From a candidate division WOR-3 bacterium (GTDB lineage: Bacteria; Hydrothermota; Hydrothermia; LBFQ01), in assembly GCA_039802605.1 (NCBI GenBank), contig JBDRWW010000008.1, positions 6,108 through 70,107 of the forward strand: a stretch of DNA of 64,000 nt, in the 5' to 3' direction. The first letter of the stretch is position 1. Every line of letters starts with the position of its first letter. The notes below the pieces were generated by a model. The model worked only from the letters and a program-made list of their open reading frames with translations. It searched no databases and was not told where the DNA came from. Positions 10,896-56,502 of this stretch are shown piece after piece. A program made the position numbers and the translations under genes.

Positions 10896-12710
10896 ATGAA
10901 TAAAATAACGGTTTTGGGAAAAATCAAGTTTGATTTAAGAGATCCCGATGAGGCATATCTTGCCCAACACGAGTTATCCGCAATTTTAGATACAGAAGTG
11001 ATTCCCGTAAAAACCATCCCGGCGCTCTTTAAAAATTATCCGTTCAACAAGTTAAATGACGATATAATTCACATAATCACCCGCCATCTATATCTCGGTG
11101 AAATACAGGGATACATAGCGGAAGTTAATACCGTTGATGCCAACAAATTGATATTACAGCCTGCCCTTTTTAAGGAAATATATCTCCTAATAGAAACCGA
11201 TAAGGATGAAGGAGAAATTAAACAAATTCTTTCCCTTTCCAATGAAAATTTATACCAGCTGTTTACATCTCGGTTAGAAGATGGTAAAAAGATTATTGTA
11301 GTAAGATTACTGCCTATACAAACCATATTTGAGTATGTCACAGATGTAAAAAAGTTGCCCGCTGTGGCTATTACTCCCAAAAAATCTAAAAACTGGGATG
11401 AGTATTTTGCTGAAAAAGAGGAGGGTATAGAAAGGGGTTTAGATGAACTATTAGAGCATCTAAGGAATAACCATTTCCGTGCACCGCATCTTGGATTGGG
11501 GAAAAGACATATTGGTGATTTTATAGATTGGGCATCTACGGATTTAAGAAAACCTTTCCTACATTACCTACATAAGTATAAGGGAAAGGGAGATCCAAGA
11601 ATATCCAGGGCTTTGATAAATTTGTTAAAAGTAAAAAAAGGTGATACGATTTTGGACCCTTTTGCGGGTTCAGGTGCTTTTATAGCGGATGCTCCAACAA
11701 TGGGTTTAAACGCTATTGGTGTTGAAATCCTGAAAATCGGGAAGATTATTTCGTATGTAAAATGCGATTTGAATTATAATATGTCGGAACTAAGAAAAGA
11801 AATAGTAAATCTTTTTTCAAAGGTTGATAGAACCGGGCAAGATTTGTTTGGATCTAACCTTGACGAGGATATAGAAAAAGTTAGAACAAAATTGAGAAAA
11901 CACGCAGGAGAAACGGCATATTTTAGAAATATCTTCCCACACTTACAGAAGATAATATATTTGAAAAATGAAATAGAACGGATACAGAATAAAAAAATCA
12001 GGGATTTTCTCCTTGTTTTGCTTAGTCAAAAAATCGTAGAATTTTCCGAGAAAAAGTATTCCAATAATTTCGTCGCCTCCTTTCAAAGTTATGTTGAAGA
12101 TAGATACCTTACCTTATACGCCACTTTGAAATTGGCAGAGAAATTAGGTGTAAATATAAACGATGGAAAGGTGAATATAATAAGAGGCGATTCAACTCGG
12201 ATGGATTTTATAGAAGATAATTCCATAGATGGAATATTGACTTCGCCTCCCTATTTTGACGCCTTGGATTATATTGGAAACAACATTATCTCAATAATCA
12301 TACTGGGATTTGATGATGACCTGAATTTTGGTTCAACCAAAGATTATTACTCAAAATTTGAAAAATACGATTTAAATATGCCAGAATCAAGCAAAGACCT
12401 AATCAACCTGCTTAAAAAATCCAAAAGATCTACAAAAGCCGAAATAGTGGAAAATTATCTCAAAATGATGAAATTGTCTTTTAGAGAATGTTACAGGGTT
12501 CTAAAACCTAAAAAATTCTATGCAATGGTGGTTAGCAAATATCATAGTTGGGTTATAAACGGAGAAGAACGAAAAATAGAGACATCAAAGGTTTTGGCCG
12601 ATTTGGGATTATCCGAAGGCTTTAAATTGGTTGGGATAATCCAACATGGCTTATCAAAGGCGGATAAGGGGAAAATAAATATAGAAGATATATTGATATT
12701 TCAAAAATGA
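10896..12710 (+). CDS. SAM-dependent N6/N4 (or N2-guanine) methyltransferase with an unknown ~250-aa N-terminal domain.
   Basis: Motif I is DPFAGSGAFIADA at about aa 260. A (D/N/S)PPY-type motif IV, ILTSPPYFDALDY, is at about aa 449, giving the I->TRD->IV order. A post-motif LKPKKFYAMVV segment follows. The gene is AT-richer than its neighbours. Confidence 0.55.
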   Translation: MNKITVLGKIKFDLRDPDEAYLAQHELSAILDTEVIPVKTIPALFKNYPFNKLNDDIIHIITRHLYLGEIQGYIAEVNTVDANKLILQPALFKEIYLLIETDKDEGEIKQILSLSNENLYQLFTSRLEDGKKIIVVRLLPIQTIFEYVTDVKKLPAVAITPKKSKNWDEYFAEKEEGIERGLDELLEHLRNNHFRAPHLGLGKRHIGDFIDWASTDLRKPFLHYLHKYKGKGDPRISRALINLLKVKKGDTILDPFAGSGAFIADAPTMGLNAIGVEILKIGKIISYVKCDLNYNMSELRKEIVNLFSKVDRTGQDLFGSNLDEDIEKVRTKLRKHAGETAYFRNIFPHLQKIIYLKNEIERIQNKKIRDFLLVLLSQKIVEFSEKKYSNNFVASFQSYVEDRYLTLYATLKLAEKLGVNINDGKVNIIRGDSTRMDFIEDNSIDGILTSPPYFDALDYIGNNIISIIILGFDDDLNFGSTKDYYSKFEKYDLNMPESSKDLINLLKKSKRSTKAEIVENYLKMMKLSFRECYRVLKPKKFYAMVVSKYHSWVINGEERKIETSKVLADLGLSEGFKLVGIIQHGLSKADKGKINIEDILIFQK

Positions 12711-12779: not shown

Positions 12780-12986
12780 TTGGTTTCACCCTTAAAATAT
12801 CCATTTATGGGAAACATTATAGGGTATTTGATAATAGCGCTTTTGGGGGTGTTGGTTTGGGGGCATAACTGGGGTGTTAAAATAATAGATGTTGGTAGGG
12901 ATTGGCCCGTCGTGCTTATATTGGTGGGTGTATGGGGGATAATAAGGGAAATTTTTAAAAACCGTAAATCTCCCCCAAAACCTTAA
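12780..12986 (+). CDS. Small two-TM membrane protein (hypothetical).
   Basis: A 68-aa ORF with two hydrophobic helices. It could be spurious. Confidence 0.3.
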   Translation: MVSPLKYPFMGNIIGYLIIALLGVLVWGHNWGVKIIDVGRDWPVVLILVGVWGIIREIFKNRKSPPKP

Positions 12987-26156: not shown

Positions 26157-26180
26157 ACTTGGAAGGTGGATATTATAAAG

Positions 26181-26993
26181 TTGAAAAGGTTTTATCAACC
26201 CGATAATACACGCTTGAAGTATTTAAGGCTTTTGCTATTGTTTTGGAAGACCTCTTTGAAGGTTGAAACGGAATACAGGTTAAACTTTTATTTTGCCGTA
26301 ATTAGCAGTTTTATAAACTTTGTGGGTAGCGTTTTTGGTTTAAGCGTATTTTACAAAATCACAAATACCCTTGGAGGTTGGACGTTTGAGGAGGCGTTGG
26401 TGGTTATGGGTATTTTCATCCTCATAGAGGGCTTTTCCCAGTCCGTTTTAAACCCGAATTTAAATTATATTGTGGAATATGTTTGGAAGGGCACGCTTGA
26501 TTTTGTTTTGTTAAAACCCGTAGATAGTCAATTCTATCTATCTTTTAGGAACTTTTCAATTTGGGGTATACCCAACGCCTTATTCGGTTTGGGGTTAATA
26601 ATTTACGGAGCCCTTAAATTGAAGGCCGGCTTGTTGGACATAATAACGGGAATATTTGCCGTTTTCATTTCACTGTTGATACTTTACAGTATATGGTTCG
26701 TTTTGGGCAGTTTGAGTATTTGGTTTGTGAAGATTTACAATATAACTTTTGTTTTGAGGCAGCTGATAGAAGCGGGGAGGTATCCGATAACCGCCTATCC
26801 AGAAGTTTATAGGTTTATATTCACATTTGTGGTACCGGTTATATTTTTAACAACCGTACCGGCAAGTTTTATAAAGGGTGGTGGAAAAACGATTTCGCTT
26901 ATTATTTCGATGTGCGTAGCGGTATTTTTGTTCGTTTTTAGCAGGATTTTCTGGAATTTTGCAAGGAGGCATTATTCAAGCGCATCAAGCTGA
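26181..26993 (+). CDS. ABC-2 family transporter permease (DUF990/ABC2_membrane_6-like).
   Basis: KGTLDFVLLKPV is the family signature and multiple TM helices are present. The ORF-track N-terminus (MVPGGFEPPTSR...) is antisense tRNA read-through. The start is probably TTG near 26181-26214. Confidence 0.5.
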   Translation: MKRFYQPDNTRLKYLRLLLLFWKTSLKVETEYRLNFYFAVISSFINFVGSVFGLSVFYKITNTLGGWTFEEALVVMGIFILIEGFSQSVLNPNLNYIVEYVWKGTLDFVLLKPVDSQFYLSFRNFSIWGIPNALFGLGLIIYGALKLKAGLLDIITGIFAVFISLLILYSIWFVLGSLSIWFVKIYNITFVLRQLIEAGRYPITAYPEVYRFIFTFVVPVIFLTTVPASFIKGGGKTISLIISMCVAVFLFVFSRIFWNFARRHYSSASS

Positions 26994-48118: not shown

Positions 48119-48190
48119 ACAAAAATGAGCGGATATTATAAGGCTGAAATTCTTAAAGTGTAGGGGGTTTGATTTTGGGGTTACAAGTTT

Positions 48191-48916
48191 TCAAGGGCTT
48201 TGACTCGGGTTTGTTTTTTGAAAAAGTATAGCGCCCATATAAGTTTTTAAGTTCTCTATTTTTACCTCTGGATAAGCCACCTTGAAAGATTTAATAAGGC
48301 TGTTTTCGGACAGTGGCGGATAGTTTTCAAACATAAACCTTAAAAAATTCCGCACCTCATCATCCTGCGAGTAAACCATCATAAAAGGCATGATTATGTT
48401 AAAAAACATCTCTTCCTTCCTTGATAACCCAATGCCTTCAAAATTCATTATGCTTTTAAGAGAATTTTTGAGGTTTTTACTCCCTATCCCTGACTTTATT
48501 CTCTCCAAAAAGAAATTCACAAGGCCGCATTCAGTAGTTTTTGATAGAAGAACCGATATACCCTTAATTCTTTTCTCCGGAAAATTTGTAGGTCTTATCC
48601 CTTTGTAAATCCATACGGATTTATCCATCCTCAACGAGAAATCAAAGTCCTCCGGCAAGCCATTTTTATCATCTATAAATCCCGCTCTATACAAAAGTGC
48701 TTTTTCTATAATGGATTTTTCTTTTAGTTTTCTTATTTCTGCGTATGGAGTAATTAAAGCGAGTTCAAGGAAATTCACCTTGTTTTTGGGATAACCAAGT
48801 GAAAGCATAATTTCTCTGTAAATCGCTTCATCGGGAAGGGCAATTTTGAGAAGATTTTTCATCCTTTGCTTTTTGAGTTCAAGCCACTTGTCACCAAGAT
48901 AATTCAGGTCAATCAT
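48191..48916 (-). CDS. Hypothetical protein, the last gene of the AT-rich defence operon.
   Basis: A 241-aa AT-rich ORF co-directional with the HEPN gene, 23 nt downstream of it. No recognisable motif. Confidence 0.45.
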   Translation of the reverse strand: MIDLNYLGDKWLELKKQRMKNLLKIALPDEAIYREIMLSLGYPKNKVNFLELALITPYAEIRKLKEKSIIEKALLYRAGFIDDKNGLPEDFDFSLRMDKSVWIYKGIRPTNFPEKRIKGISVLLSKTTECGLVNFFLERIKSGIGSKNLKNSLKSIMNFEGIGLSRKEEMFFNIIMPFMMVYSQDDEVRNFLRFMFENYPPLSENSLIKSFKVAYPEVKIENLKTYMGAILFQKTNPSQSP

Positions 48917-48939
48917 AAATTTAGTTTCTTGGTAGAATT

Positions 48940-49344
48940 TTACTTTAAGTCTTCTTCTTTTACGGAGAGTTTTTTAAAAATGAAATCTTTTACTTTTTTT
49001 GCTATATCAAATGCCTTTTTCGCTTCATCAAGCGTTGGTGTATAAAATTCATCAGGATACCTTATCTCAACTGCGTAAAATGTAAGGTCTCCCACATCTA
49101 ATTCTTCAAACTCTTTATCCTCTTCACTGCATAGCTTCAAGAGAAATTCTAAATTATGAGTCCTGCCAAAATCCTTATTTTTAAAAGTAAGATATGCTTT
49201 TAATGCTTTTTCTACAAATTGTTGAGCGTGGAAACATACACTGCTTGTTACAATATCTTCTTCTGGCAATCTAAACTCATTTTCAATTGTCTTATAATCT
49301 TCAAGGGCTTTGAGCAGCCATTTTTTAACTCTTTCATCTATCAT
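48940..49344 (-). CDS. HEPN domain protein (toxin-like component of an MNT/HEPN pair).
   Basis: 134 aa, alpha-helical, with a GRTHNLEFLL (R-x-H-N) HEPN-like motif. It has a 4-nt overlap with the upstream nucleotidyltransferase gene. Confidence 0.6.
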   Translation of the reverse strand: MIDERVKKWLLKALEDYKTIENEFRLPEEDIVTSSVCFHAQQFVEKALKAYLTFKNKDFGRTHNLEFLLKLCSEEDKEFEELDVGDLTFYAVEIRYPDEFYTPTLDEAKKAFDIAKKVKDFIFKKLSVKEEDLK

Positions 49345-49679
49345 ATTTCAATTCCTTCTTTTAAAGCCTCTCTCGTGACCGAACCCGGAAAGTCTTTATA
49401 ATATTCCGTTTCTTTTTGTGACTTTATTACTATATCGGATGGAATAAACATCTCTGCTAAAACTTTCCTTATGGTTTTTGCAATTTCTCTTTTTTCCTGT
49501 GTGTTCAAATCACTCCTAACAATAATTAAAATGTCCCAATCGCTATTTTCTTTATAATCACCTCTTGCTCTTGAACCAAATAGAATGATTTTCAGGACAT
49601 CAATCCCTTTGCCTTCAAAAATTTCTTTTACTTTCTTTTTGATAATTTCCTTCATATCCTCTTTCCCCTTCATCTTCAA
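49341..49679 (-). CDS. Minimal nucleotidyltransferase (MNT, Pol-beta superfamily).
   Basis: ILFGSRARGDYKENSDWDILII matches the GS-x9-13-DxD signature. It overlaps the MTase stop and the HEPN start by 4 nt each. Confidence 0.75.
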   Translation of the reverse strand: MKMKGKEDMKEIIKKKVKEIFEGKGIDVLKIILFGSRARGDYKENSDWDILIIVRSDLNTQEKREIAKTIRKVLAEMFIPSDIVIKSQKETEYYKDFPGSVTREALKEGIEI

Positions 49680-52600
49680 ACACTCCTCGCTTTTTCTAAC
49701 CTTGTTTTTACAAGTTCGGCAACTGCCCAGTAAACCTCTTTTCGTTCTTCTTCGGTTAATCCAAGGGCATCAAAGATAATGTCATCAAGGGCTTTTCTAT
49801 CGGGCAATGGATTTGGCTCCTGCTTACGGATGGGTTTTGATGGGTCAAAGCCGAGTTCGGTGAAGATGGAGTAAATTGGACGATTTAAAAAATTATCCCC
49901 CATATGAAAATTGCTAATATTTAAAAACAAACACGGAAAACGAATAAGGTCTATTTTCACCAAACGGATAGCACCACCCCCCAATCCTTTCCTTCCAAGA
50001 ACTTCAATAAAAAAGGCAGTTAGCGTAGAGTTTAACAACAAACATAATGATTTGTTATCTATTTTTTTTCCTGTTATACCATAAAAATTATGCTCAAATG
50101 GTAAATTATCTAAATTGTAATGACATAGATGTTTATCTCCACGCAAATCAGGCCATAACAATGGGGCTCTTCTAATTTCATATGGAACGGATTTTACTTT
50201 TACTACTGAAACAGCATCCTCTTTTTTTAGTAAAATTTTACTAACTTCTTTGGGAGTTTTAAAAACAGGTGAATATTCGTCAGCATTAAAAGTATCAGTT
50301 ATTCTTTTGTAATACTTTCTATTGTTTCCTGTAATAATTCCTGATTTAACCTCTGCAATATCTCCCAACCTAACCAATTTTCCTTTCCCTTTTTCCAAAA
50401 TCTTAAAGTAAATCTCCGGAGCCCTCAGATACTTTCCGCCCCATTTGTTGCCAATGTAGGGCGGGTCAAATTTTACCACTTCAACACCTTCCTGTAAAAG
50501 TTCTTTTTTAGTTTTCGGATAAATTCTGAAATCTTCATCACCAAAAACCGGTTGATTTGCGCTCTCAATTTTTTTGATAACCTGCGCATTACTTACATCT
50601 TCAAAGGGCTTTTTGAAGGCAACAAATTTTATTGTGTAATCATCAAGTTTATTTTCAGGTCTTTGGATTAAAACAATTACCGTATTAACATCTGCTTGCT
50701 TGAATGACCTTTTTGCAAGATTGTCAAAAATATAGATTGGCCTCATATTTTTGAGGAGAAACTCCTGAAGTCCAGCGCCATATCCCACATCAAGCCAGGA
50801 ATTGGAGTTTATAAAGCAAAATATACCGCCGGGACGAAGTAAAGACAGTCCCTGATAGTAAAAATAAACATAAAGGTCGCTTTTTCTGTCAATTTTTGTG
50901 ATATTATTCCACACGATTTTAACCGATTGAATTAGTTTTTCTTTATATTCTCTCTTTATTTCTCTCCATTCTTCTTCGGAATATTGGTTTTTGTTTTCAA
51001 GTGGTGGAGCAATCAGCTCCTGTCTTACATAAGGAGGATTACCAATAACTATATCAAAACCGCCATTTTGGGAAAAGGCCTCAACAAAATCAAGCTCCCA
51101 GAGAAAGTAATCTTTTTGAGTTTTTTGCCCTATTTTACTTAGCAATGAACTGTAATTTTTAAGTTTCGTTTTTTCCTTCTCTATAAGAGCTTCAATCTTT
51201 TTTACTTGTTCCTTATCGGTTCTTTCGAACCCATACAAATCCCGCTGAGATGTTAAGAAGCGGAGCTGATTTTCGTAGCTCTGTATTGTCTTTTTCACCT
51301 CATCAATCTTTGATTGAATAATCTCTTTAAAGATTTCCTGTTCAAAATTTTCAATTTCTTTAAGTTCTTTTAAATCGGCGCTTATTAAACCGGAAAAGAA
51401 TTTGCTTTTTCTTTCCACAAGCTGTAATATTTTATCTCTGATTGGTTTGGGGATATAACGCATCTCGCTTCTGAGGTTTATATGAACCCCTGCAATTTCC
51501 TGAATGAGTGAATCCCCCTGACGGATTTTAAACGAAAGATTTGGCAAAAGAGGTTTTGTGTAAATATCCATATATTTTTCGTCTGTTTCTATGATTAATG
51601 AAAGCCACAATCTCAACTCACCCACCATTACAGCCCAATCCTTAACATCCACACCGTAAAGGTTTTCAAGAATAATTTTTTGTTTCAAAGCGAATAAGTT
51701 TTCTTCCCTGTTTTCAAGGTATCTTGTTATTTCCTGATGAAGTTCAACGAGAATATTCATCATTCCAACAAGGAATGAGGCGGACCCAACGGCTGGGTCA
51801 ACAACTTTTACTTTGTCAAGTTTTTCTTTAATTTTAATGAGTTCATCTCCGCTAAGCGATGAAACCTTGTTATGAGGGTCAAAGATAAAGTCAATTATCT
51901 TTTCCTTTGAAATTTTTGTCTCGTTGGCAAGGTACTCAACAAGAGACATTCTGCACATAAAGTCAATTTCAACTCTTGGAGTGTAAAAAATTCCCGCTTC
52001 GCCTCTCTCCTCTTCTGCAATTAAGGATTCATAAACTTTGCCAAGCATTTCTGGATCAACCGCAACTTCAACATCCACAGGCAGTGATTCATTAATCGTA
52101 AAGTTGAATGTCTCAAGAAAACCTTTTTTCAAATCATTAGGGTCTGGCTCAAACAACCATTCAAAGACACTATCCGGAACATCAAACCCCAATTCATCCA
52201 ATTCGGTGCGTGAGAATAGACCGCCGTTCAGAAAGGGCATAATGCTAAAAGATTCTCTGATGTCCTCGGGTAAATCTGGATGCAAGTATTGCAATTTTTT
52301 ATTGAATGCTCCAAAAAATAGACTTGAAAGCCATTGTGAATAAAAGACATCCTTTTTTCCGTTCTTTTCTCGCCAATCTTTGTATTTGAGCCAAAGATTT
52401 TTCATATAATTTTTATCCTGCACATAATCCTTCCATTTAAACCAGCCCTTTCTTTGTAGGAAATAAAGGAACATAATTCTTGAAAGCAGCAGCTGAGCAA
52501 ATGAGTGTTTTTTCTGATAAGGAACATCATATTTAGAAAGGGATTTAATTAGAACTTCCTTTAAAGCATGTTTGTAAGCTTCAAAGAACTCCTCCGTTAC

Positions 52601-53197
52601 AACCTCAACATTAAAGGCCTCTTCCAAATCTTCCAGCGTTGGATACTTATTGCTTTCCAGCAAAGGCAAAAATCTACTCTGCGCCGTGTGGCTCTTTTCG
52701 TTTTTACCCACCAAAAAGGAAAACCTTTTTGCAGGCGTAAGCTCCTCTTTACCCCTAAGCTTTCCCGTTGGAGTTTCAACTAATTTATAATCCACTTTTA
52801 CAAGGGAAAATCTCCAATCTTCTCCATTGGGAGGGACAAAAGCCACAAGTGCGGCATCCTTCTTAGAGTCTGTTCCCAATTTACCTTGTAGGTATTCTGC
52901 TACAAAGTTTCTTTGAGCTGTCCGGGCGCGATACAATGAAGTTTCCCTTTTCAATCTTACGATCAAAATATCAATGATGTGCTCACCATTGTTTGGTTCA
53001 TAGCGTCCTAAACGCTCCCATGACTCTATGAAATCAAGATACTTTTCCTTTACACCCTGAATTCCACTTCTTGGAGGGATTGCCTTTTCCCTATTATAAG
53101 TTTTCAGAAGATTGAGTATAAATTTTTCAAAACGTTCCCTATCAAATGGATTTTCAAAGGTTTCAACTATTAACCTTTTTGCCTGTTCCCTGTTCAT
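49676..53197 (-). CDS. Large gamma-class N6-adenine DNA methyltransferase of the Eco57I/MmeI/PglX (Type IIG-like) family with a long C-terminal putative target-recognition region.
   Basis: GIFYTPRVEIDFMCRMSL is the FYTP motif X. VVDPAVGSASFLVGM is motif I. FDIVIGNPPYVRQE is motif IV. The helical-linker-like segment FAQLLLSRIMFLYFLQRKGW is present. About 450 aa follow NPPY. There is a strong AGGAGGGGG SD. Confidence 0.75.
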   Translation of the reverse strand: MNREQAKRLIVETFENPFDRERFEKFILNLLKTYNREKAIPPRSGIQGVKEKYLDFIESWERLGRYEPNNGEHIIDILIVRLKRETSLYRARTAQRNFVAEYLQGKLGTDSKKDAALVAFVPPNGEDWRFSLVKVDYKLVETPTGKLRGKEELTPAKRFSFLVGKNEKSHTAQSRFLPLLESNKYPTLEDLEEAFNVEVVTEEFFEAYKHALKEVLIKSLSKYDVPYQKKHSFAQLLLSRIMFLYFLQRKGWFKWKDYVQDKNYMKNLWLKYKDWREKNGKKDVFYSQWLSSLFFGAFNKKLQYLHPDLPEDIRESFSIMPFLNGGLFSRTELDELGFDVPDSVFEWLFEPDPNDLKKGFLETFNFTINESLPVDVEVAVDPEMLGKVYESLIAEEERGEAGIFYTPRVEIDFMCRMSLVEYLANETKISKEKIIDFIFDPHNKVSSLSGDELIKIKEKLDKVKVVDPAVGSASFLVGMMNILVELHQEITRYLENREENLFALKQKIILENLYGVDVKDWAVMVGELRLWLSLIIETDEKYMDIYTKPLLPNLSFKIRQGDSLIQEIAGVHINLRSEMRYIPKPIRDKILQLVERKSKFFSGLISADLKELKEIENFEQEIFKEIIQSKIDEVKKTIQSYENQLRFLTSQRDLYGFERTDKEQVKKIEALIEKEKTKLKNYSSLLSKIGQKTQKDYFLWELDFVEAFSQNGGFDIVIGNPPYVRQELIAPPLENKNQYSEEEWREIKREYKEKLIQSVKIVWNNITKIDRKSDLYVYFYYQGLSLLRPGGIFCFINSNSWLDVGYGAGLQEFLLKNMRPIYIFDNLAKRSFKQADVNTVIVLIQRPENKLDDYTIKFVAFKKPFEDVSNAQVIKKIESANQPVFGDEDFRIYPKTKKELLQEGVEVVKFDPPYIGNKWGGKYLRAPEIYFKILEKGKGKLVRLGDIAEVKSGIITGNNRKYYKRITDTFNADEYSPVFKTPKEVSKILLKKEDAVSVVKVKSVPYEIRRAPLLWPDLRGDKHLCHYNLDNLPFEHNFYGITGKKIDNKSLCLLLNSTLTAFFIEVLGRKGLGGGAIRLVKIDLIRFPCLFLNISNFHMGDNFLNRPIYSIFTELGFDPSKPIRKQEPNPLPDRKALDDIIFDALGLTEEERKEVYWAVAELVKTRLEKARSV

Positions 53198-53232
53198 TTT
53201 TACCCCCTCCTTGTTTATTTTTGTTTTTTTCG

Positions 53233-56200
53233 TTAACTTTGTATTTTCTCATTTTCTACCCCCAAATATAAGGATAATATAACTTCCTCCTTTTCTTTTC
53301 TCTTTTCTCCCTTTTTGTCATATCTTCTGATAAAATCGGGTGGAATCACCTTTTGAAGAATGGCGATTACTTTCTGGGGATCTTTCATCTCACTTCCAAG
53401 ATTTTCTAACCCTTTAAGGGCTCTTCTAACGGTATTTTTAGGTATAGATCTAACCTCAAGGCTAGTTATCAAATCCCTTATGTATTCTTTCTGATCCTCG
53501 GTAAACGATTTGGAATTTTGAATTGCTTTCAGTGTTTTGAAAAGTTCATCAAAAATGTTCTTACCACGCTTATGGTTTCCAATTATTACTCCTTCCGAAA
53601 ATGCTTCTTTTTTGTTTTTTTTGAGTAATTCATAATAGTCTTGAAGCGGTAGATTTACCCTTTTTTCATCCGGTGAGCTTTCAAGAATTTTTGCGGCGGT
53701 CAGAAAATCAACTTCAACCGTCTTTTCTTTATCCGATAATAAGAATTTCATAAGTTTCCCCTTCCTGAAAAATGTAAGAAGCGAACCCGGTTGAGCGATG
53801 TCTTTGAGGTTTTCCGAAAACACTTTGGATGTGCGCGCTTTTTTAGGAAGTCGTTTTATTTTTTCAAAAAGTTCGGGGTTCTTATACCGTATCTCCTCAA
53901 TAATTTTTAAGTATTTCAGCTCGCTCTCTTCAACCCCTTCATCTTCTTCAATAATGGTTTTCCTGGAAAGGAGTTTATCAAAAAGTTCGTGCGAAGCTAT
54001 GGGTTCCCCTTCCGTCAAAATTGCGGAATCGCCTCCGAGTAAGGTCAGGAACGCTTCTATTTTTGACCGAGCTATTTTTGTAAGTTCAATTTCGGATTCC
54101 GCCTGTTTTGTTGGGAAAAAGTTAAATGTATAAATCCTATCAAACTTTGTATCTATGCGATTCACCCTTCCAACCCTTTGCATAAGCCTTACCGGATTCC
54201 AAGGTATGTCGTAATTTATAACTATATTTGAGCGGTGGAGATTAACGCCTTCCGAAAGGGTTTCGGTTGAAACTAGAATTCGGTAATCGTCTTTTTGGTT
54301 TTTTGCCCTTGCATCAAAATTTTCAATAACCTTATCCTTTACATATTCCGGTGATTCGCCGTGAAACAAAAGGACTACTTCCCCAAACCTTTCCTTTATT
54401 TTCGCGGTTAGATACTCCGCGGTTTCCTTTGATTCCGTGAAGATTATAATTTTTTTATCTTTAAGAATGGGGTTATTTTCTAACTCGTATAAAAGTTTTT
54501 CAATTTTCGGGTCCCTTTTTATTCCTTCCCACATTGATTTTATTTGATTTAGAATTTCAAGGTCGTTTTGCAAGTCCTCTTCCAATTGTGGTGTGAAATC
54601 CGAGCTTGGAAATCTTCTAACTTTTCCCTCATCAATGAGTTTCTGAATCGCTTCATCGTCTCCCTTTTCAACGAGATCAAAAACCTTGTTTATGTAATCT
54701 TTACCTATATATACATTTCCTTTTTGATATTCACTGATGAACATTTCGTATGAACGAATAAACCTTTCAATAGTTTTTCTGAATGCATAGAAACTACTTT
54801 CAAGACGCTTTACGAGGAGAACCTTCATAAATCCACCCAAATTTCGTTGAGCCTGCTCTTCGTATGGAATACGTTCTTTCAAGTATAGCAATGGCATATA
54901 ACGGGCATATTTGAAATCTTGGGTTATAAGCTCAACGGTTTTCATAAAGATTCTATCTTCTTCATCGTTGAGTTGATAATAAAAAGGTTTTGGATCTTCA
55001 ACCTCCGGAAATTTTATATTGTTTTTCTCAAGGTCTTCTTTAAAGTATTTCTGAATTTCAGACCTAGTTCTTCTTACCATAATATATTTGAGGACTTTAT
55101 CGCGTATCTCTCTCGCATTTTCTCTTGATATTTCTAAGAACCTGTTGTAATCTTTATGACGATAGGCCTCTTTTAACCTTTTTTCAAGCCCATTGAAGAA
55201 ACTTTCAAGGTCTGGAACACCGGGAATTGTGCTTTTTTTGGGGCTTTGGAAGAGTTTTATCTGGGCGAGTATATCTTTTGGAGAGTTATTGTAAGGTGTG
55301 GCGGAAATTAGTATTATCCTCTTATTACGACAGATTTCAAAAAGTTTTTCGTAGCTTATTGTTGATTCATTTCTAAATCGGTGGGATTCGTCTATGATAA
55401 TATTCTTATATTCCCTTTCTTGCACCAATTTTTTTGCTTCATCAAGTTTTCCAATAGATATAAATTCTGCTGGAATACGGAAATCGGAAAACACATTTGG
55501 CCAAGAACCCGGATTATTCCTGTTAAGTAGCGAAGGCGGCGCTATAACGAGCGTCCTACCATCAAGCTGCTTGGCAAGCATGGCGGCAATATATGTTTTC
55601 CCCAAACCTACCACATCCGATATAAAAACGCCTCCATACTCCTCCAATATTTTTTTAGCGTTTAAAACCGCTTGTTCTTGATATTTCAACCTTTTAAAGC
55701 CCTCGGGTAAGAAGTCTAAGAATATATCGTCGGTTTCTGATAAATCATCTTTAAAGTACTCGTATAAAAATTTGAGATAAAGTTCATAAGGTGTGATATT
55801 TTTATTAAACCAAGTCCTCTCATTTATAGTTCGCAGGTATTCCTCATTAACATCAACGGCATTTTCCCACAATTCCTCAAATTTTTGCAATGCAAACTCG
55901 TAATCCGCACGGTTTTTCAGTTCAACATTGAATTCAAGATTATCTTCAAGACCCGATTTTGTGAAATTGCTTGAACCGGTAATAACTCTGCCAACATCCC
56001 TATCACCCTCTTTGAATGTAATAATATACACTTTTGCATGGATTTTTCTTGAAGGATAGGCCCTTATTTGCAATTTCCCTTCTTTTATCCACTCAACAAA
56101 CTTGCGAATACCCTCTTCAACATGTAAATCATCTTCGGAATTTGTCATTTCATCTTCTATCAACCTTTCTACTTCTTGTTTGGTTTCGTGCTCCGATATT

Positions 56201-56415
56201 AAATTAAATGTTTTCCTATCCGTTCCTATTCCTATGAGTATTCTAATCCTTTCCGCATTCTCCAAAGCCTTATATAACGCGTGAAAACCGCTTATATAAA
56301 AGTACGCGACAATGCAATCAAAATATCTGCAATCTTTTACCAACTGCACAAACCTGTCCCTTAAAGTTTTGCCCCCCTCATTCACTATAAAGGTTAAATC
56401 CAAATCCTTAACCAT
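53233..56415 (-). CDS. PLD-family nuclease domain fused to an SNF2-type SF2 helicase (1060 aa).
   Basis: The N-terminal HKD motif is HAKVYII...GSSNFT. The helicase motifs are I VVGLGKTYIAAMLA, II IIIDESHRFRN and III LISATPYNN. There is an about 300-aa C-terminal extension of unknown function. Confidence 0.75.
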   Translation of the reverse strand: MVKDLDLTFIVNEGGKTLRDRFVQLVKDCRYFDCIVAYFYISGFHALYKALENAERIRILIGIGTDRKTFNLISEHETKQEVERLIEDEMTNSEDDLHVEEGIRKFVEWIKEGKLQIRAYPSRKIHAKVYIITFKEGDRDVGRVITGSSNFTKSGLEDNLEFNVELKNRADYEFALQKFEELWENAVDVNEEYLRTINERTWFNKNITPYELYLKFLYEYFKDDLSETDDIFLDFLPEGFKRLKYQEQAVLNAKKILEEYGGVFISDVVGLGKTYIAAMLAKQLDGRTLVIAPPSLLNRNNPGSWPNVFSDFRIPAEFISIGKLDEAKKLVQEREYKNIIIDESHRFRNESTISYEKLFEICRNKRIILISATPYNNSPKDILAQIKLFQSPKKSTIPGVPDLESFFNGLEKRLKEAYRHKDYNRFLEISRENAREIRDKVLKYIMVRRTRSEIQKYFKEDLEKNNIKFPEVEDPKPFYYQLNDEEDRIFMKTVELITQDFKYARYMPLLYLKERIPYEEQAQRNLGGFMKVLLVKRLESSFYAFRKTIERFIRSYEMFISEYQKGNVYIGKDYINKVFDLVEKGDDEAIQKLIDEGKVRRFPSSDFTPQLEEDLQNDLEILNQIKSMWEGIKRDPKIEKLLYELENNPILKDKKIIIFTESKETAEYLTAKIKERFGEVVLLFHGESPEYVKDKVIENFDARAKNQKDDYRILVSTETLSEGVNLHRSNIVINYDIPWNPVRLMQRVGRVNRIDTKFDRIYTFNFFPTKQAESEIELTKIARSKIEAFLTLLGGDSAILTEGEPIASHELFDKLLSRKTIIEEDEGVEESELKYLKIIEEIRYKNPELFEKIKRLPKKARTSKVFSENLKDIAQPGSLLTFFRKGKLMKFLLSDKEKTVEVDFLTAAKILESSPDEKRVNLPLQDYYELLKKNKKEAFSEGVIIGNHKRGKNIFDELFKTLKAIQNSKSFTEDQKEYIRDLITSLEVRSIPKNTVRRALKGLENLGSEMKDPQKVIAILQKVIPPDFIRRYDKKGEKRKEKEEVILSLYLGVENEKIQS

Positions 56416-56502
56416 ATTATTTAAAGGTAAAGGCGTATATTATAAAGTTGGTATCCCCCCTTTCCCATTGAAAATACTTTTTCACCCTTATAATATTGTA
56501 CT

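What the first reader, a model, noticed from the sequence alone, without database searches (positions are those of the whole stretch)
48191..56415. AT-rich four- to five-gene operon: PLD-nuclease/SNF2-helicase fusion, MmeI/PglX-family N6-adenine methyltransferase, MNT/HEPN pair and a 241-aa unknown. This is a candidate uncharacterised ATP-dependent defence system.
All five genes are co-directional on the minus strand and tightly packed. The helicase-MTase gap is 35 nt, the MTase/MNT and MNT/HEPN junctions overlap by 4 nt, and HEPN and the 241-aa ORF are 23 nt apart. The 1060-aa protein combines an HKD (PLD) nuclease motif with SNF2 helicase motifs I-III, so it could serve as an ATP-driven translocating nuclease. 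The 1173-aa protein has the FYTP...DPAVGSASFL...NPPY signature of Type IIG/BREX-PglX adenine methyltransferases plus about 450 aa downstream that could be a target-recognition domain. Together this looks like a split Type ISP/IIG- or DISARM-class-1-like restriction system, but it lacks DrmA/DrmB, PglZ and BrxC, and it carries an embedded MNT/HEPN module. The block is visibly AT-richer than the flanking tuf and asparaginase genes and sits next to tRNA-Gln, a typical island location. I am not certain this exact gene combination has been characterised experimentally.
Basis: partly seen in the sequence, partly recalled or inferred. Interest (0 to 1): 0.82.

Follow-up and report, generated by a model that had tools for sequence, protein, structure and literature searches.

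The report
Two-gene helicase-nuclease/methylase restriction system
This AT-rich island holds a widespread but experimentally uncharacterised two-gene restriction-modification-like defence system: an ATP-driven motor-nuclease paired with a sequence-reading DNA methylase. It also carries a passenger toxin-antitoxin pair and a small accessory protein that, in the loci examined, occurs only with this system.

Summary
Five co-directional, tightly packed minus-strand genes lie at the stated coordinates, in the most AT-rich 8.2 kb of the window (GC 0.358 vs 0.419).

The functional unit is smaller than five genes. The conserved core is the PLD(HKD)-SNF2 helicase plus an Eco57I/MmeI-like N6-adenine methyltransferase with a swappable target-recognition domain (TRD). 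In 56 of 58 informative genomes, spanning more than 20 phyla, the methyltransferase lies directly downstream of the helicase.

The MNT/HEPN pair is one of many toxin-antitoxin, Abi or defence cargoes that insert inside these operons. One relative even holds a pAgo-SIR2 system there.

The "241-aa unknown" is a short DUF2851 protein. It is rare among these systems, but all 11 informative DUF2851 loci carry the system. Its fold weakly resembles HhH-GPD DNA glycosylases.

A near-identical sister strain differs only by a replaced TRD cassette.

The closest characterised relative is MANTIS (Gao_RL, BREX-related type 2). This locus lacks MANTIS's DUF499 ATPase and DUF3780 protein, and also lacks DrmA/B, PglZ and BrxC.

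Best reading: a split, Type ISP/Type III-like ATP-dependent restriction-modification system. It is a new variant of a known kind, seen before only in passing.

The parts
53233..56415 (-). Gene 1: PLD(HKD) nuclease - SNF2-type SF2 helicase fusion, 1060 aa. This is the predicted motor-nuclease (R-like) subunit.
   Evidence: Pfam PLDc_2, ResIII, SNF2-rel_dom and Helicase_C. Full-length match to PADLOC C3a139 'HKD+Snf2', E 8.4e-52. About 67-82% identical homologues across many phyla. 558 relatives in the species-level genome set.
55867..56286 (-). PLD/HKD nuclease domain (aa 44-183). The single HKD motif H126-x-K128 ... G147-S-S-N150 is encoded at 55966-56040.
   Evidence: The motif residues are invariant in alignment A1. 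One HKD motif per chain implies a dimer forms one active site, as in Nuc, BfiI, SauUSI and MtsD (established knowledge; MtsD structure in bioRxiv 10.64898/2026.09.23.753747).
54154..55689 (-). SF2/SNF2 ATPase core: N-lobe aa 243-463 (Walker A GLGKT 270-274, DESH 342-345, SATP 371-374) and C-lobe aa 638-754 (QRxGRxxR 746-753).
   Evidence: all motif residues invariant.
53236..54018 (-). Conserved C-terminal region of the helicase (aa ~800-1060) with no Pfam match. It has no hypervariable segment, so the helicase carries no obvious specificity domain.
   Evidence: Many invariant residues across A1. No family hit. A role in docking the MTase is inferred only.
49676..53197 (-). Gene 2: gamma-class N6-adenine DNA methyltransferase with its own TRD, 1173 aa. 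This is the predicted M~S-like specificity subunit.
   Evidence: Pfam Eco57I, MmeI_Mtase and N6_Mtase. PADLOC REase_MTase_IIG PDLC03596, E 1.6e-120. Lies downstream of the helicase, co-directional, in 56 of 58 informative loci.
52703..53197 (-). MTase N-terminal alpha/beta domain (aa 1-165). It is family-specific and very highly conserved (R62, D76, R92, Q95, R96, N97, K113, D127-W-R-F-S131, K134, R158, E167, H170). Function unknown: candidate helicase-coupling module or degenerate/cryptic nuclease.
51848..52690 (-). Helical pre-MTase domain (aa ~170-450), of the kind seen in MmeI, PglX and Type I HsdM.
50588..51847 (-). MTase catalytic domain (aa ~451-870): motif I DPAVGSASF (aa 467-475) and motif IV NPPY (aa 720-723, nt 51029-51040). 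FYTP (aa 404-407) lies just upstream, in the preceding part.
49859..50348 (-). Variable TRD cassette (aa ~950-1113). It is replaced by an unrelated-looking 685-nt allele in a strain that is otherwise 99.5-99.8% identical.
   Evidence: blastn of the window against L157. Protein alignment shows 27% identity between the alleles, and there is no silent copy in the window. The C-terminal half of the family is hypervariable (mean divergence 0.75) and uncorrelated with the helicase.
49676..49791 (-). Conserved MTase 3' tail module (...EEERKEVYWAVAELVKTRLEKARSV*), ending in AAGGAGTGTTTGA. Its AGGAG lies 9 nt before the ATG of the next gene, where an RBS would sit. In other loci extra copies of this module mark cargo junctions.
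   Evidence: 88-90% nt identity across phyla against about 73% for the rest of the gene. Alignment A5. nhmmer finds 59 of 162 sequences with a copy and 13 non-redundant loci with 2-3 copies.
49341..49679 (-). Gene 3: minimal nucleotidyltransferase (MNT), the predicted antitoxin of an MNT/HEPN pair. The probable true start is the ATG at 49673. Embedded cargo, not core.
   Evidence: Pfam NTP_transf_2/Polbeta, E about 2e-13. PADLOC PDC-S09. MntA model 36.9 bits, below its 60-bit cut-off. MNT+HepT/HEPN pairs recur at varying positions in related operons.
48940..49344 (-). Gene 4: HEPN domain protein, the predicted RNase toxin of the pair. Embedded cargo.
   Evidence: Pfam HEPN PF05168, E 2.6e-22. 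HEPN modules embedded in R-M operons are an established pattern (PMC3710099).
48191..48916 (-). Gene 5: short-form DUF2851 protein, 241 aa and all-alpha. A rare accessory that, in the loci examined, occurs only with this system. It is usually the last gene of the block, or directly upstream of the helicase.
48133..48149 (-). Host promoter-like motif TTTCAGCCTTATAATAT upstream of tRNA-Gln/tuf. It marks the right-hand edge of host sequence.
   Evidence: 10 copies in the window against 1.0 expected.
56480..56496 (+). The same host promoter-like motif (TTTCACCCTTATAATAT) upstream of asparaginase. It marks the other island boundary.

Best explanation
This is a horizontally acquired defence islet. 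Its working core is a two-subunit, ATP-dependent restriction-modification-like system.

The 1173-aa protein is the specificity and modification subunit. Its C-terminal TRD reads a short, probably asymmetric, DNA sequence. Its gamma-class N6-adenine methyltransferase marks host sites, probably on one strand only.

The 1060-aa protein is the restriction subunit. It probably dimerises to assemble one HKD (PLD) active site, as single-HKD nucleases do. It uses its SNF2-type ATPase to move on or remodel DNA, and it cuts DNA whose sites are unmethylated. It has no variable domain of its own, so it must be targeted through the methyltransferase. The conserved N-terminal modules of the methyltransferase are the most likely contact.

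The MNT/HEPN pair is a passenger toxin-antitoxin module. It may give addiction or a back-up abortive response, as in other R-M operons.

The DUF2851 protein is an optional accessory of this system, possibly a DNA- or modified-base-binding factor.

Shown here: the domains, the intact catalytic motifs, the conserved linkage, TRD hypervariability and swapping, and the variability of the cargo.

Inferred: defence function, hemimethylation, complex formation, dependence on translocation, the mode of cleavage, and the roles of DUF2851 and of the MTase N-terminal domain.
For: 1. Domains and intact catalytic motifs in both proteins.

2. Linkage. Of 58 helicase loci from the genome scan with at least 2.5 kb of downstream sequence, 56 have the MTase downstream on the same strand. 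In 35 it lies within 150 nt. The two exceptions are decay products: an orphan helicase, and a locus with only a TaqI_C remnant.

3. A bare two-gene insertion between housekeeping genes in Thermocrinis minervae.

4. The pairing persists at about 25-35% identity on Parabacteroides, Thermus and Allomeiothermus plasmids. In the latter two the MTase ends before the TRD region and is followed by a separate hypothetical ORF.

5. Division of labour. The helicase is about 70% identical across phyla with no variable segment. MTase residues 1-560 are conserved, while 560-1173 are hypervariable.

6. Helicase distances correlate with MTase aa 1-170 (r 0.48, Mantel p 0.001) and aa 171-560 (Spearman 0.59), but not with the TRD (r 0.05, p 0.23).

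7. Two WOR-3 strains are 99.5-99.8% identical over 16 kb and differ only by replacement of the TRD cassette. This is the signature of specificity diversification in R-M systems.

8. Low GC, and neighbouring or embedded genes that are overwhelmingly TA, Abi or defence genes.

9. Mechanistic analogy to characterised systems: MANTIS pairs a dimeric PLD-SF2 effector, MtsD, with a site-reading, hemimethylating MTase, MtsC (bioRxiv 10.64898/2026.09.23.753747). Type ISP and Type III enzymes work similarly (PMC3874165, PMC4490356).
Against: There are no experimental data for any member. I found no methylome motif, no phage assay and no evidence that the two proteins form a complex.

In MANTIS the MTase needs a DUF499 AAA+ ATPase and MtsB to load on DNA and turn over. 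Both are absent here, so the analogy may not transfer.

The MTase N-terminal alpha/beta domain has many invariant polar residues. It could itself be catalytic, which would change the division of labour.

The co-variation of helicase and MTase (r about 0.5) is modest, and any two co-transferred neighbours would show some.

I could not run PADLOC or DefenseFinder system-level rules, and I could not consult REBASE.
Confidence: 0.7

Rival explanations
1. The 1173-aa protein is a self-contained Type IIG restriction-modification enzyme whose N-terminal alpha/beta domain is its nuclease. The PLD-SNF2 protein is then an accessory or a second, independent effector. One possibility is a SauUSI-like ATP-dependent nuclease aimed at DNA the IIG enzyme cannot handle. 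Another is a translocase that boosts cleavage.
Confidence: 0.13
2. This is a BREX/MANTIS-like exclusion system that is incomplete on its own. It would need an unlinked host ATPase or loader, or it would block phage replication without cutting DNA. The PLD domain would then act in regulation or on another substrate.
For: Partial homology of the MTase to PglX and DrmMI, and of the helicase to DrmD, BrxHII, HmaA and the 'phospholipD_antiphage' model. In MANTIS, MtsC needs MtsA and MtsB for methylation, and MtsD cleavage has not been reconstituted in vitro (bioRxiv 10.64898/2026.09.23.753747).
Against: No DUF499/BrxC, DUF3780, PglZ or DrmA/B gene lies in the island, and the flanks examined (40-64 kb, plus the 7-15.5 kb low-GC stretch) encode housekeeping functions and one unrelated DNA methylase. 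The cargo census of 45 related operons lists none of these families among its 25 most frequent. The system travels as a bare two-gene unit into very different phyla, which argues for self-sufficiency. The HKD motif is invariant.
Confidence: 0.09
3. All five genes form one integrated system. MNT/HEPN would be a guarded back-up effector, PrrC-like, released when the R-M core is inhibited. DUF2851 would be an obligatory third core component.
For: Tight packing and co-direction. The same five genes sit at the same site in a sister strain. MNT+HepT/HEPN is among the commonest embedded cargoes. DUF2851 was found only with this system in informative loci, and the linkage survives gene-order permutation. 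The PrrC-hsd precedent (PMC3710099).
Against: Most helicase-MTase pairs have neither gene. Only 1 of the 80 genome-scan loci has DUF2851, and 35 of 56 pairs are directly adjacent with nothing between them. The position and identity of the cargo vary freely.
Confidence: 0.2
4. This is not a defence system. It would be an epigenetic regulator (an orphan-like MTase) coupled to a SNF2 remodeller or repair nuclease that acts on host DNA.
For: SNF2 proteins such as RapA act on host transcription complexes (weak RapA-like hits). Phase-variable Type IIG-like MTases can regulate genes (PMC9881135 context).
Against: Foreign composition. Patchy, HGT-like distribution with about 70% identity across phyla. 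TRD swapping between near-identical strains. A defence-rich neighbourhood and cargo. An invariant nuclease motif.
Confidence: 0.03

Closest known systems
MANTIS / Gao_RL (DUF499-centred BREX-related type 2 system)
   Same: An N6-adenine MTase that reads the target (MtsC), paired with an effector that has an N-terminal single-HKD PLD nuclease fused to an SF2 helicase-like ATPase (MtsD, dimeric). It works as an R-M-like system against unmethylated DNA. It is the only experimentally studied system whose effector has this architecture alongside a methylase.
   Different: MANTIS needs a DUF499 AAA+ ATPase (MtsA) and a small DUF3780 protein (MtsB; written DUF3870 in the preprint) for methylation and restriction. 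Neither is present here. Homology is partial: NCBIfam 'phospholipD_antiphage' gives 152 bits against a cut-off of 1100, and PADLOC HmaA and PLD_Helicase match only the helicase C-lobe. The MTase here carries a unique N-terminal alpha/beta domain.
Class 1 DISARM (DrmA, DrmB, DrmC, DrmD, DrmMI)
   Same: It combines a SNF2 helicase (DrmD), a PLD nuclease (DrmC) and an Eco57I-like N6-adenine MTase (DrmMI). Partial HMM matches to DrmD and DrmMI.
   Different: There is no DrmA or DrmB (the DUF1998 pair), which defines DISARM. Here the PLD is fused to the SNF2 protein. DrmD scores 150.7 bits against a cut-off of 610.
Type ISP restriction-modification enzymes (LlaGI, LlaBIII)
   Same: The same functional modules in the same logical order: nuclease, SF2 translocase, gamma-class N6A MTase, TRD. 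They read asymmetric sites, hemimethylate, and cleave in an ATP-dependent way (PMC3874165).
   Different: Type ISP is a single polypeptide with an Mrr-type PD-QxK nuclease. Here the modules are split over two proteins, and the nuclease is of the unrelated PLD/HKD type.
Type III restriction-modification (EcoP15I Mod/Res)
   Same: A two-gene layout in which the Mod subunit holds specificity and methylates one strand, and the Res subunit is a helicase-nuclease that depends on Mod for targeting (PMC4490356).
   Different: Mod is a beta-class MTase, and Res has a C-terminal PD-(D/E)xK nuclease and a non-SNF2 motor. This is analogy, not orthology.
Type IIG/IIL enzymes (MmeI, Eco57I) and BREX PglX
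   Different: No recognisable MmeI_N or PD-(D/E)xK nuclease. PglX models score 38-66 bits against cut-offs of 400-900. An obligate helicase-nuclease partner is not a feature of Type IIG.
SauUSI / NgoAVII / CglI-type PLD + helicase restriction enzymes
   Same: A PLD nuclease coupled to an SF2 ATPase, with a single HKD site formed by dimerisation.
   Different: SauUSI is a Type IV enzyme with its own modified-cytosine-reading TRD and no methylase. NgoAVII and CglI have separate R and N (helicase) proteins and m5C methylases (from established knowledge; not tested here).
HEPN/MNT (type VII) toxin-antitoxin modules and PrrC-style effectors embedded in R-M operons
   Same: MNT followed by HEPN, abutting or overlapping reading frames, embedded in an R-M-like operon (PMC3710099).
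   Different: The HEPN is of the PF05168 family, not HepT (PF01934). The MNT scores below the MntA cut-off, 36.9 against 60 bits. Toxin-antitoxin activity is untested.

Membership tests
Class 1 DISARM | DrmA helicase and DrmB (DUF1998) present in the locus | tested here: not met
   The island holds only five genes and none has DUF1998 or DrmA architecture. The flanks are tuf and asparaginase.
Class 1 DISARM | SNF2 helicase is an equivalog of DrmD | tested here: not met
   NF038317 DISARM_DrmD scores 150.7 bits against a cut-off of 610, and covers only aa 437-854.
BREX (types 1-6) | PglZ phosphatase and BrxC/PglY ATPase present | tested here: not met
   Absent from the island and from the flanks examined.
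BREX (types 1-6) | MTase reaches a PglX model cut-off | tested here: not met
   The best hit, BREX_6_MTaseX, scores 65.7 bits against 900. BREX_1 scores 58.4 against 500.
MANTIS / Gao_RL / BR type 2 | DUF499 AAA+ ATPase (MtsA) in the operon | tested here: not met
   There is no such gene in the island. It is also not among the 25 most frequent families in the 90 embedded genes of 45 related operons.
MANTIS / Gao_RL / BR type 2 | Small DUF3780 protein (MtsB) in the operon | tested here: not met
   The three small proteins here are MNT, HEPN and DUF2851.
MANTIS / Gao_RL / BR type 2 | Effector with an N-terminal HKD nuclease fused to an SF2 helicase | tested here: met
   PLDc_2 at aa 44-183 followed by SNF2/Helicase_C. 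However, NF042964 scores only 152 bits against 1100, so this is a homologue and not an equivalog.
Type ISP R-M | A single polypeptide carrying nuclease, translocase, MTase and TRD | tested here: not met
   There are two separate ORFs with a 35-nt gap. No fused form appears among the fetched loci or the 150 listed N-domain representatives.
Type ISP R-M | Mrr-type PD-(Q/E)xK nuclease | tested here: not met
   The nuclease is PLD/HKD.
Type IIG R-M | MTase and TRD in one chain (gamma-class, Eco57I/MmeI-like) | tested here: met
   Pfam Eco57I at E 1.1e-28. PADLOC REase_MTase_IIG at E 1.6e-120. Variable C-terminal TRD.
Type IIG R-M | Endonuclease domain in the same chain | tested here: inconclusive
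Type III R-M | Beta-class Mod MTase, and a Res subunit with a C-terminal PD-(D/E)xK nuclease | tested here: not met
   The motif order FYTP ... DPAVGS ... NPPY is gamma-class. The nuclease is an N-terminal PLD.
Restriction-modification systems in general | Site-specific methylation protects DNA from the cognate nuclease | not testable with these tools
   This needs methylome sequencing and restriction assays.
Type VII HepT/MntA toxin-antitoxin | MNT reaches the MntA model, and the toxin is a HepT (PF01934) RNase | tested here: not met
   MntA_antitoxin scores 36.9 bits against 60. The toxin is HEPN PF05168. It belongs to the same superfamily pairing but is not this equivalog.
HhH-GPD DNA glycosylase superfamily (for DUF2851) | HhH-GPD fold | tested here: inconclusive
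HhH-GPD DNA glycosylase superfamily (for DUF2851) | Conserved catalytic Asp about 20 residues after the HhH hairpin | tested here: not met
   The G161-I-G163 hairpin is conserved, but positions around 183-187 are variable in the 46-sequence alignment.

The most novel reading that the evidence does not exclude
The helicase-MTase pair, together with DUF2851, could define a distinct minimal defence platform with two unusual properties.

First, it would achieve methylation-based self/non-self discrimination with a PLD-SNF2 effector but without the AAA+ loader that MANTIS and BREX need. The MTase's unique N-terminal domain would do that job.

Second, the interval between the MTase's highly conserved 3' tail and DUF2851 would act as a dedicated cargo bay that captures and exchanges other defence cassettes, from toxin-antitoxin pairs up to a whole pAgo-SIR2 system. 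The ~110-nt tail module would serve both as a recombination anchor and as a ready-made translational-coupling adaptor. In this reading DUF2851 would be a glycosylase-like reader of modified phage DNA.
Probability: 0.15. Interest if true: 0.8.

Novelty: new variant of a known kind. Interest (0 to 1): 0.6.

Why it matters
Methylation-based defences that use ATP-driven effectors (Type I, III and ISP enzymes, BREX, DISARM, MANTIS) are central to phage and plasmid exclusion. How they couple site recognition to restriction is still being worked out.

This family would be the simplest such arrangement with a PLD-SNF2 effector: two genes and no loader ATPase. It is extremely widespread, with at least 558 species-level genomes in more than 20 phyla, including CPR bacteria.

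It would therefore make a tractable minimal model for asking three things: what MtsA/BrxC-type ATPases add in the larger systems, how a TRD-bearing MTase hands over to a motor-nuclease, and whether hemimethylation plus site orientation is enough for self-recognition.

The swappable TRD with conserved flanks suggests easy re-programming of specificity.

The cargo-bay pattern, and a repeated MTase-tail module at cassette junctions, may explain how defence islets assemble inside R-M operons.

The family is frequent in thermophiles, which also makes it a possible source of thermostable enzymes.

Tried and rejected
1. Terminal inverted repeats. The 17-nt inverted repeat exactly at the two island edges (48133-48149 / 56480-56496) looked like transposon ends. 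It is the host's promoter consensus TTTCAsCCTTATAATAT, with 10 copies in the window against 1.0 expected, including one upstream of the tRNA cluster at 26 kb. Rejected.

2. tRNA-Gln as an integration site. The island lies on the 5'/promoter side of the tRNA. There is no integrase and no tRNA-derived direct repeat. Not supported.

4. A Rosetta-stone fusion of helicase and MTase. None appeared among the fetched loci or the 150 listed N-domain representatives, whose maximum length is about 1340 aa.

5. L106's 2474-aa ORF with an N-terminal DUF2851 domain. I hoped it would reveal a functional partner, but the rest has no Pfam match.

6. The two loci without an MTase (L020, L038). They are decay products and not a different architecture.

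7. Phage-borne copies. Only 3 distant partial hits. Plasmid copies are at most 35% identical.

8. GC-skew sign change at about 56.4 kb as a replication origin. Skew tracks gene orientation throughout the window, so it is uninformative.

9. A silent TRD cassette near the gene as the source of the swap. None in the window.

10. The afdb50 fold library was unavailable. Foldseek against the PDB did not independently confirm the DUF2851 fold.

Full report
**The observation**

Every predicted domain is present:
- the 1060-aa protein has PLDc_2 (aa 44-183), ResIII/SNF2-rel (aa 243-463) and Helicase_C (aa 638-754)
- the 1173-aa protein has Eco57I, MmeI_Mtase and N6_Mtase
- the small ORFs are an MNT nucleotidyltransferase and a HEPN protein
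- the "241-aa unknown" matches Pfam DUF2851

The flanks are tuf, tRNA-Gln and asparaginase.

The block has GC 0.358 against 0.419 elsewhere. That is lower than any other 8.2-kb window and about 3.4 sd below their mean.

The host is a candidate division WOR-3 MAG, with 100%-identical proteins in the database.

**The conserved unit**

Helicase homologues are unusually conserved, about 67-82% identical in WOR-3, Aquificota, Thermodesulfovibrio, Petrotoga, Bacteroidota, Verrucomicrobiota and others. The HKD, Walker A, DExH and motif VI residues are all invariant.

A scan of one genome per species found at least 558 relatives, and I fetched 80 loci. Of the 58 with at least 2.5 kb downstream, 56 carry a homologue of the MTase downstream on the same strand. 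In 35 it lies within 150 nt. In 21 it follows a 0.15-2.1 kb insert. The two exceptions are an orphan helicase and a locus that keeps only a TaqI_C remnant.

In Thermocrinis minervae the two genes alone are wedged between housekeeping genes.

The pairing persists at 25-35% identity on plasmids. Parabacteroides has the same adjacent pair. In Thermus and Allomeiothermus the MTase ends before the TRD region and is followed by a separate hypothetical ORF, so specificity may sit on its own subunit there.

So the system is helicase-nuclease plus MTase.

**Division of labour**

I compared 55 MTase partners with a median of 35% identity. Residues 1-560 are conserved and residues 560-1173 are hypervariable.

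Pairwise distances of the helicase correlate with those of MTase aa 1-170 (r 0.48, Mantel p 0.001) and aa 171-560 (Spearman 0.59). They do not correlate with the TRD region (r 0.05, p 0.23).

A second WOR-3 genome (L157) has the same five genes at the same chromosomal site and is 99.5-99.8% identical over 16 kb. The one exception is window 49859-50348, where 490 nt are replaced by 685 nt encoding an alternative TRD. The two alleles share 27% identity and are flanked by identical sequence.

This is the behaviour of an R-M specificity module under diversifying selection. The helicase has no comparable variable part, so it must get its targeting from the MTase.

**The MTase N-terminus**

An AF2 model of aa 1-450 has mean pLDDT 82, and about 85-97 over aa 1-140. 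It shows an alpha/beta domain (aa 1-165) followed by a helical domain.

The domain carries many invariant polar residues (R62, D76, R92, Q95-R96-N97, K113, D127-W-R-F-S, K134, R158, E167, H170) but no canonical PD-(D/E)xK arrangement. It has no sequence match to any solved structure.

An exhaustive search found it in 680 cluster representatives. Among the 150 best hits listed it is always N-terminal, either in proteins of about 1000-1340 aa or in shorter entries that may be fragments.

I read it as a family-specific coupling or regulatory module. It may be a degenerate nuclease fold. A cryptic catalytic role is not excluded.

**The cargo**

Genes embedded between or after the two core genes vary freely. 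A census of 90 embedded genes in 45 loci gives:
- AlbA_2/HATPase_c_4 ATPases (9)
- MNT (7) with HepT (5) or HEPN (2)
- DUF2283 (5) and DUF4258 (3)
- AbiEii (4) and DUF6922 (4)
- Bro-N (4)
- SIR2 (3) with Piwi (2)
- DUF5131, DUF559, Ymh, M78 peptidase, AAA_21 and AAA_13

One locus (L158) has a whole short-pAgo + SIR2 system between the MTase and DUF2851.

The window's MNT/HEPN pair is therefore typical passenger cargo. This fits the established pattern of HEPN modules inside R-M operons (PMC3710099). A PrrC-like functional coupling remains possible but is untested.

**DUF2851**

The short (~240 aa) form is 92% identical to that of Hydrogenobacter thermophilus TK-6. There the order is helicase, MTase, DUF5131, MNT, HepT, DUF2851, and then leuS.

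Only 1 of the 80 genome-scan loci has it, so it is rare among these systems.

The reciprocal test is clean. I fetched 70 metagenomic DUF2851 loci. All 11 with at least 6 kb of upstream context carry the system: 9 have the MTase upstream, and the other 2 have the helicase and MTase immediately downstream. Gene order permutes between HEL-MT-...-DUF, MT-...-DUF-HEL and DUF-HEL-MT.

A role in binding DNA or modified bases is a hypothesis only.

**An unexpected repeat**

The last ~116 nt of the MTase gene (49676-49791) is 88-90% identical at the DNA level to Hydrogenobacter, Desulfurella and another bacterial locus. The rest of the gene is about 73% identical and the helicase 65-73%. The DUF2851 gene is 91.9% identical to Hydrogenobacter's. 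The 3' part of the island is therefore mosaic.

Thirteen non-redundant loci have 2-3 co-directional copies. The orphan copies lie in the cargo region and often end within a few nt of the next gene's start codon. The AAGGAG of the tail sits where an RBS would be.

I cannot tell whether these copies are scars of cassette exchange by homologous recombination, remnants of spare TRD cassettes, or a selected translational-coupling adaptor.

**Comparison with known systems**

The helicase's best PADLOC match is C3a139 'HKD+Snf2', full-length at E 8.4e-52. That profile comes from a survey of genes found near type III CRISPR loci and has no functional work behind it (PMC6546367).

DrmD, BrxH, HmaA, DpdE and 'phospholipD_antiphage' match only parts of the protein and fall far below the curated cut-offs. 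PglX and DrmMI models likewise fail for the MTase.

The BREX-related type 2 system has an HKD-SNF2 effector plus an N6-MTase, but it is defined by a DUF499 ATPase and DUF3780. Studied experimentally as MANTIS/Gao_RL, it needs both for methylation and restriction. Neither is present here.

One paper notes in passing a 'Cj0031-like Type II R-M CDS with an adjacent PLD + SNF CDS'.

I found no named or characterised system with this gene content. REBASE could not be consulted.

**Verdict**

This is a genuine, compositionally foreign defence islet. The best explanation is a split Type ISP/Type III-like ATP-dependent R-M system (confidence 0.7). It is a new variant of a known kind: widespread and uncharacterised.

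The main rival is an autonomous Type IIG enzyme with an accessory helicase-nuclease (0.13).

Noticed in passing
window 49676-49791 (-); L085 7867-7980 and 9295-9328; L158 16834-16943; L089 2710-2821; L101 3623-3736; L123 9311-9420; L128 578-689 and 3630-3713; L151 4148-4260: A ~110-nt MTase 3' tail module ending in AAGGAGTGTGTGA is far more conserved at the DNA level than the rest of the operon. It recurs as orphan, co-directional copies inside cargo regions, and these copies often end within a few nt of the next gene's start codon. It may be a recombination anchor or a translational-coupling adaptor for cargo cassettes.
   Followed up: partly
window 49859-50348 vs L157 11871-12555: Two WOR-3 strains are 99.5-99.8% identical over 16 kb and differ only by replacement of the MTase TRD cassette (490 nt against 685 nt, 27% aa identity). 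There is no silent donor copy nearby.
   Followed up: yes
L158 13133-15622: A complete short-pAgo (Piwi) + SIR2 defence system is embedded between the MTase and DUF2851 of a related operon. An MNT/HepT pair lies between the helicase and the MTase in the same locus.
   Followed up: partly
window 48133-48149 (-), 56480-56496 (+), 26170-26186 (-), 12784-12800 (+) and six more: A 17-nt motif, TTTCAsCCTTATAATAT, recurs 10 times in the window against 1.0 expected by chance. The perfect copies lie just upstream of tRNA-Gln and asparaginase, and another lies upstream of the tRNA cluster at 26 kb. It is probably this organism's promoter (extended -10) consensus.
   Followed up: partly
window 10896-12710 (+): A 604-aa N6_N4-type DNA methylase lies in a second, milder low-GC stretch (8-14 kb, GC 0.37-0.39) among housekeeping genes. 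No partner endonuclease was looked for.
   Followed up: no
L004 13838-17665 and L085 3630-7856: Some MTase partners (1275 and 1408 aa) carry a Pfam Y1_Tnp (IS200-like HUH) hit inside the MTase. Five embedded cargo ORFs also hit Y1_Tnp. The meaning is unknown.
   Followed up: no
L106 1-7422: A 2474-aa ORF running in from the contig edge has a DUF2851 domain at aa 37-263 and no other recognisable domain. It is followed by an SLT transglycosylase gene.
   Followed up: partly
L088 9070-9768 and 10559-11260: Two DUF2851 genes lie in tandem in one operon, separated by an orphan MTase-tail copy and one cargo gene.
   Followed up: no
window ~56400-56500: GC skew changes sign here, from negative on the left to positive on the right. 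The change coincides with divergent gene orientation. Skew tracks coding strand throughout the window, so this does not identify an origin.
   Followed up: partly
window 49671-49679: The MNT ORF as listed starts at a TTG that overlaps the MTase stop. An ATG two codons later (49673), 9 nt after an AGGAG, gives the 110-aa product called in the sister genome and is the likelier start.
   Followed up: partly
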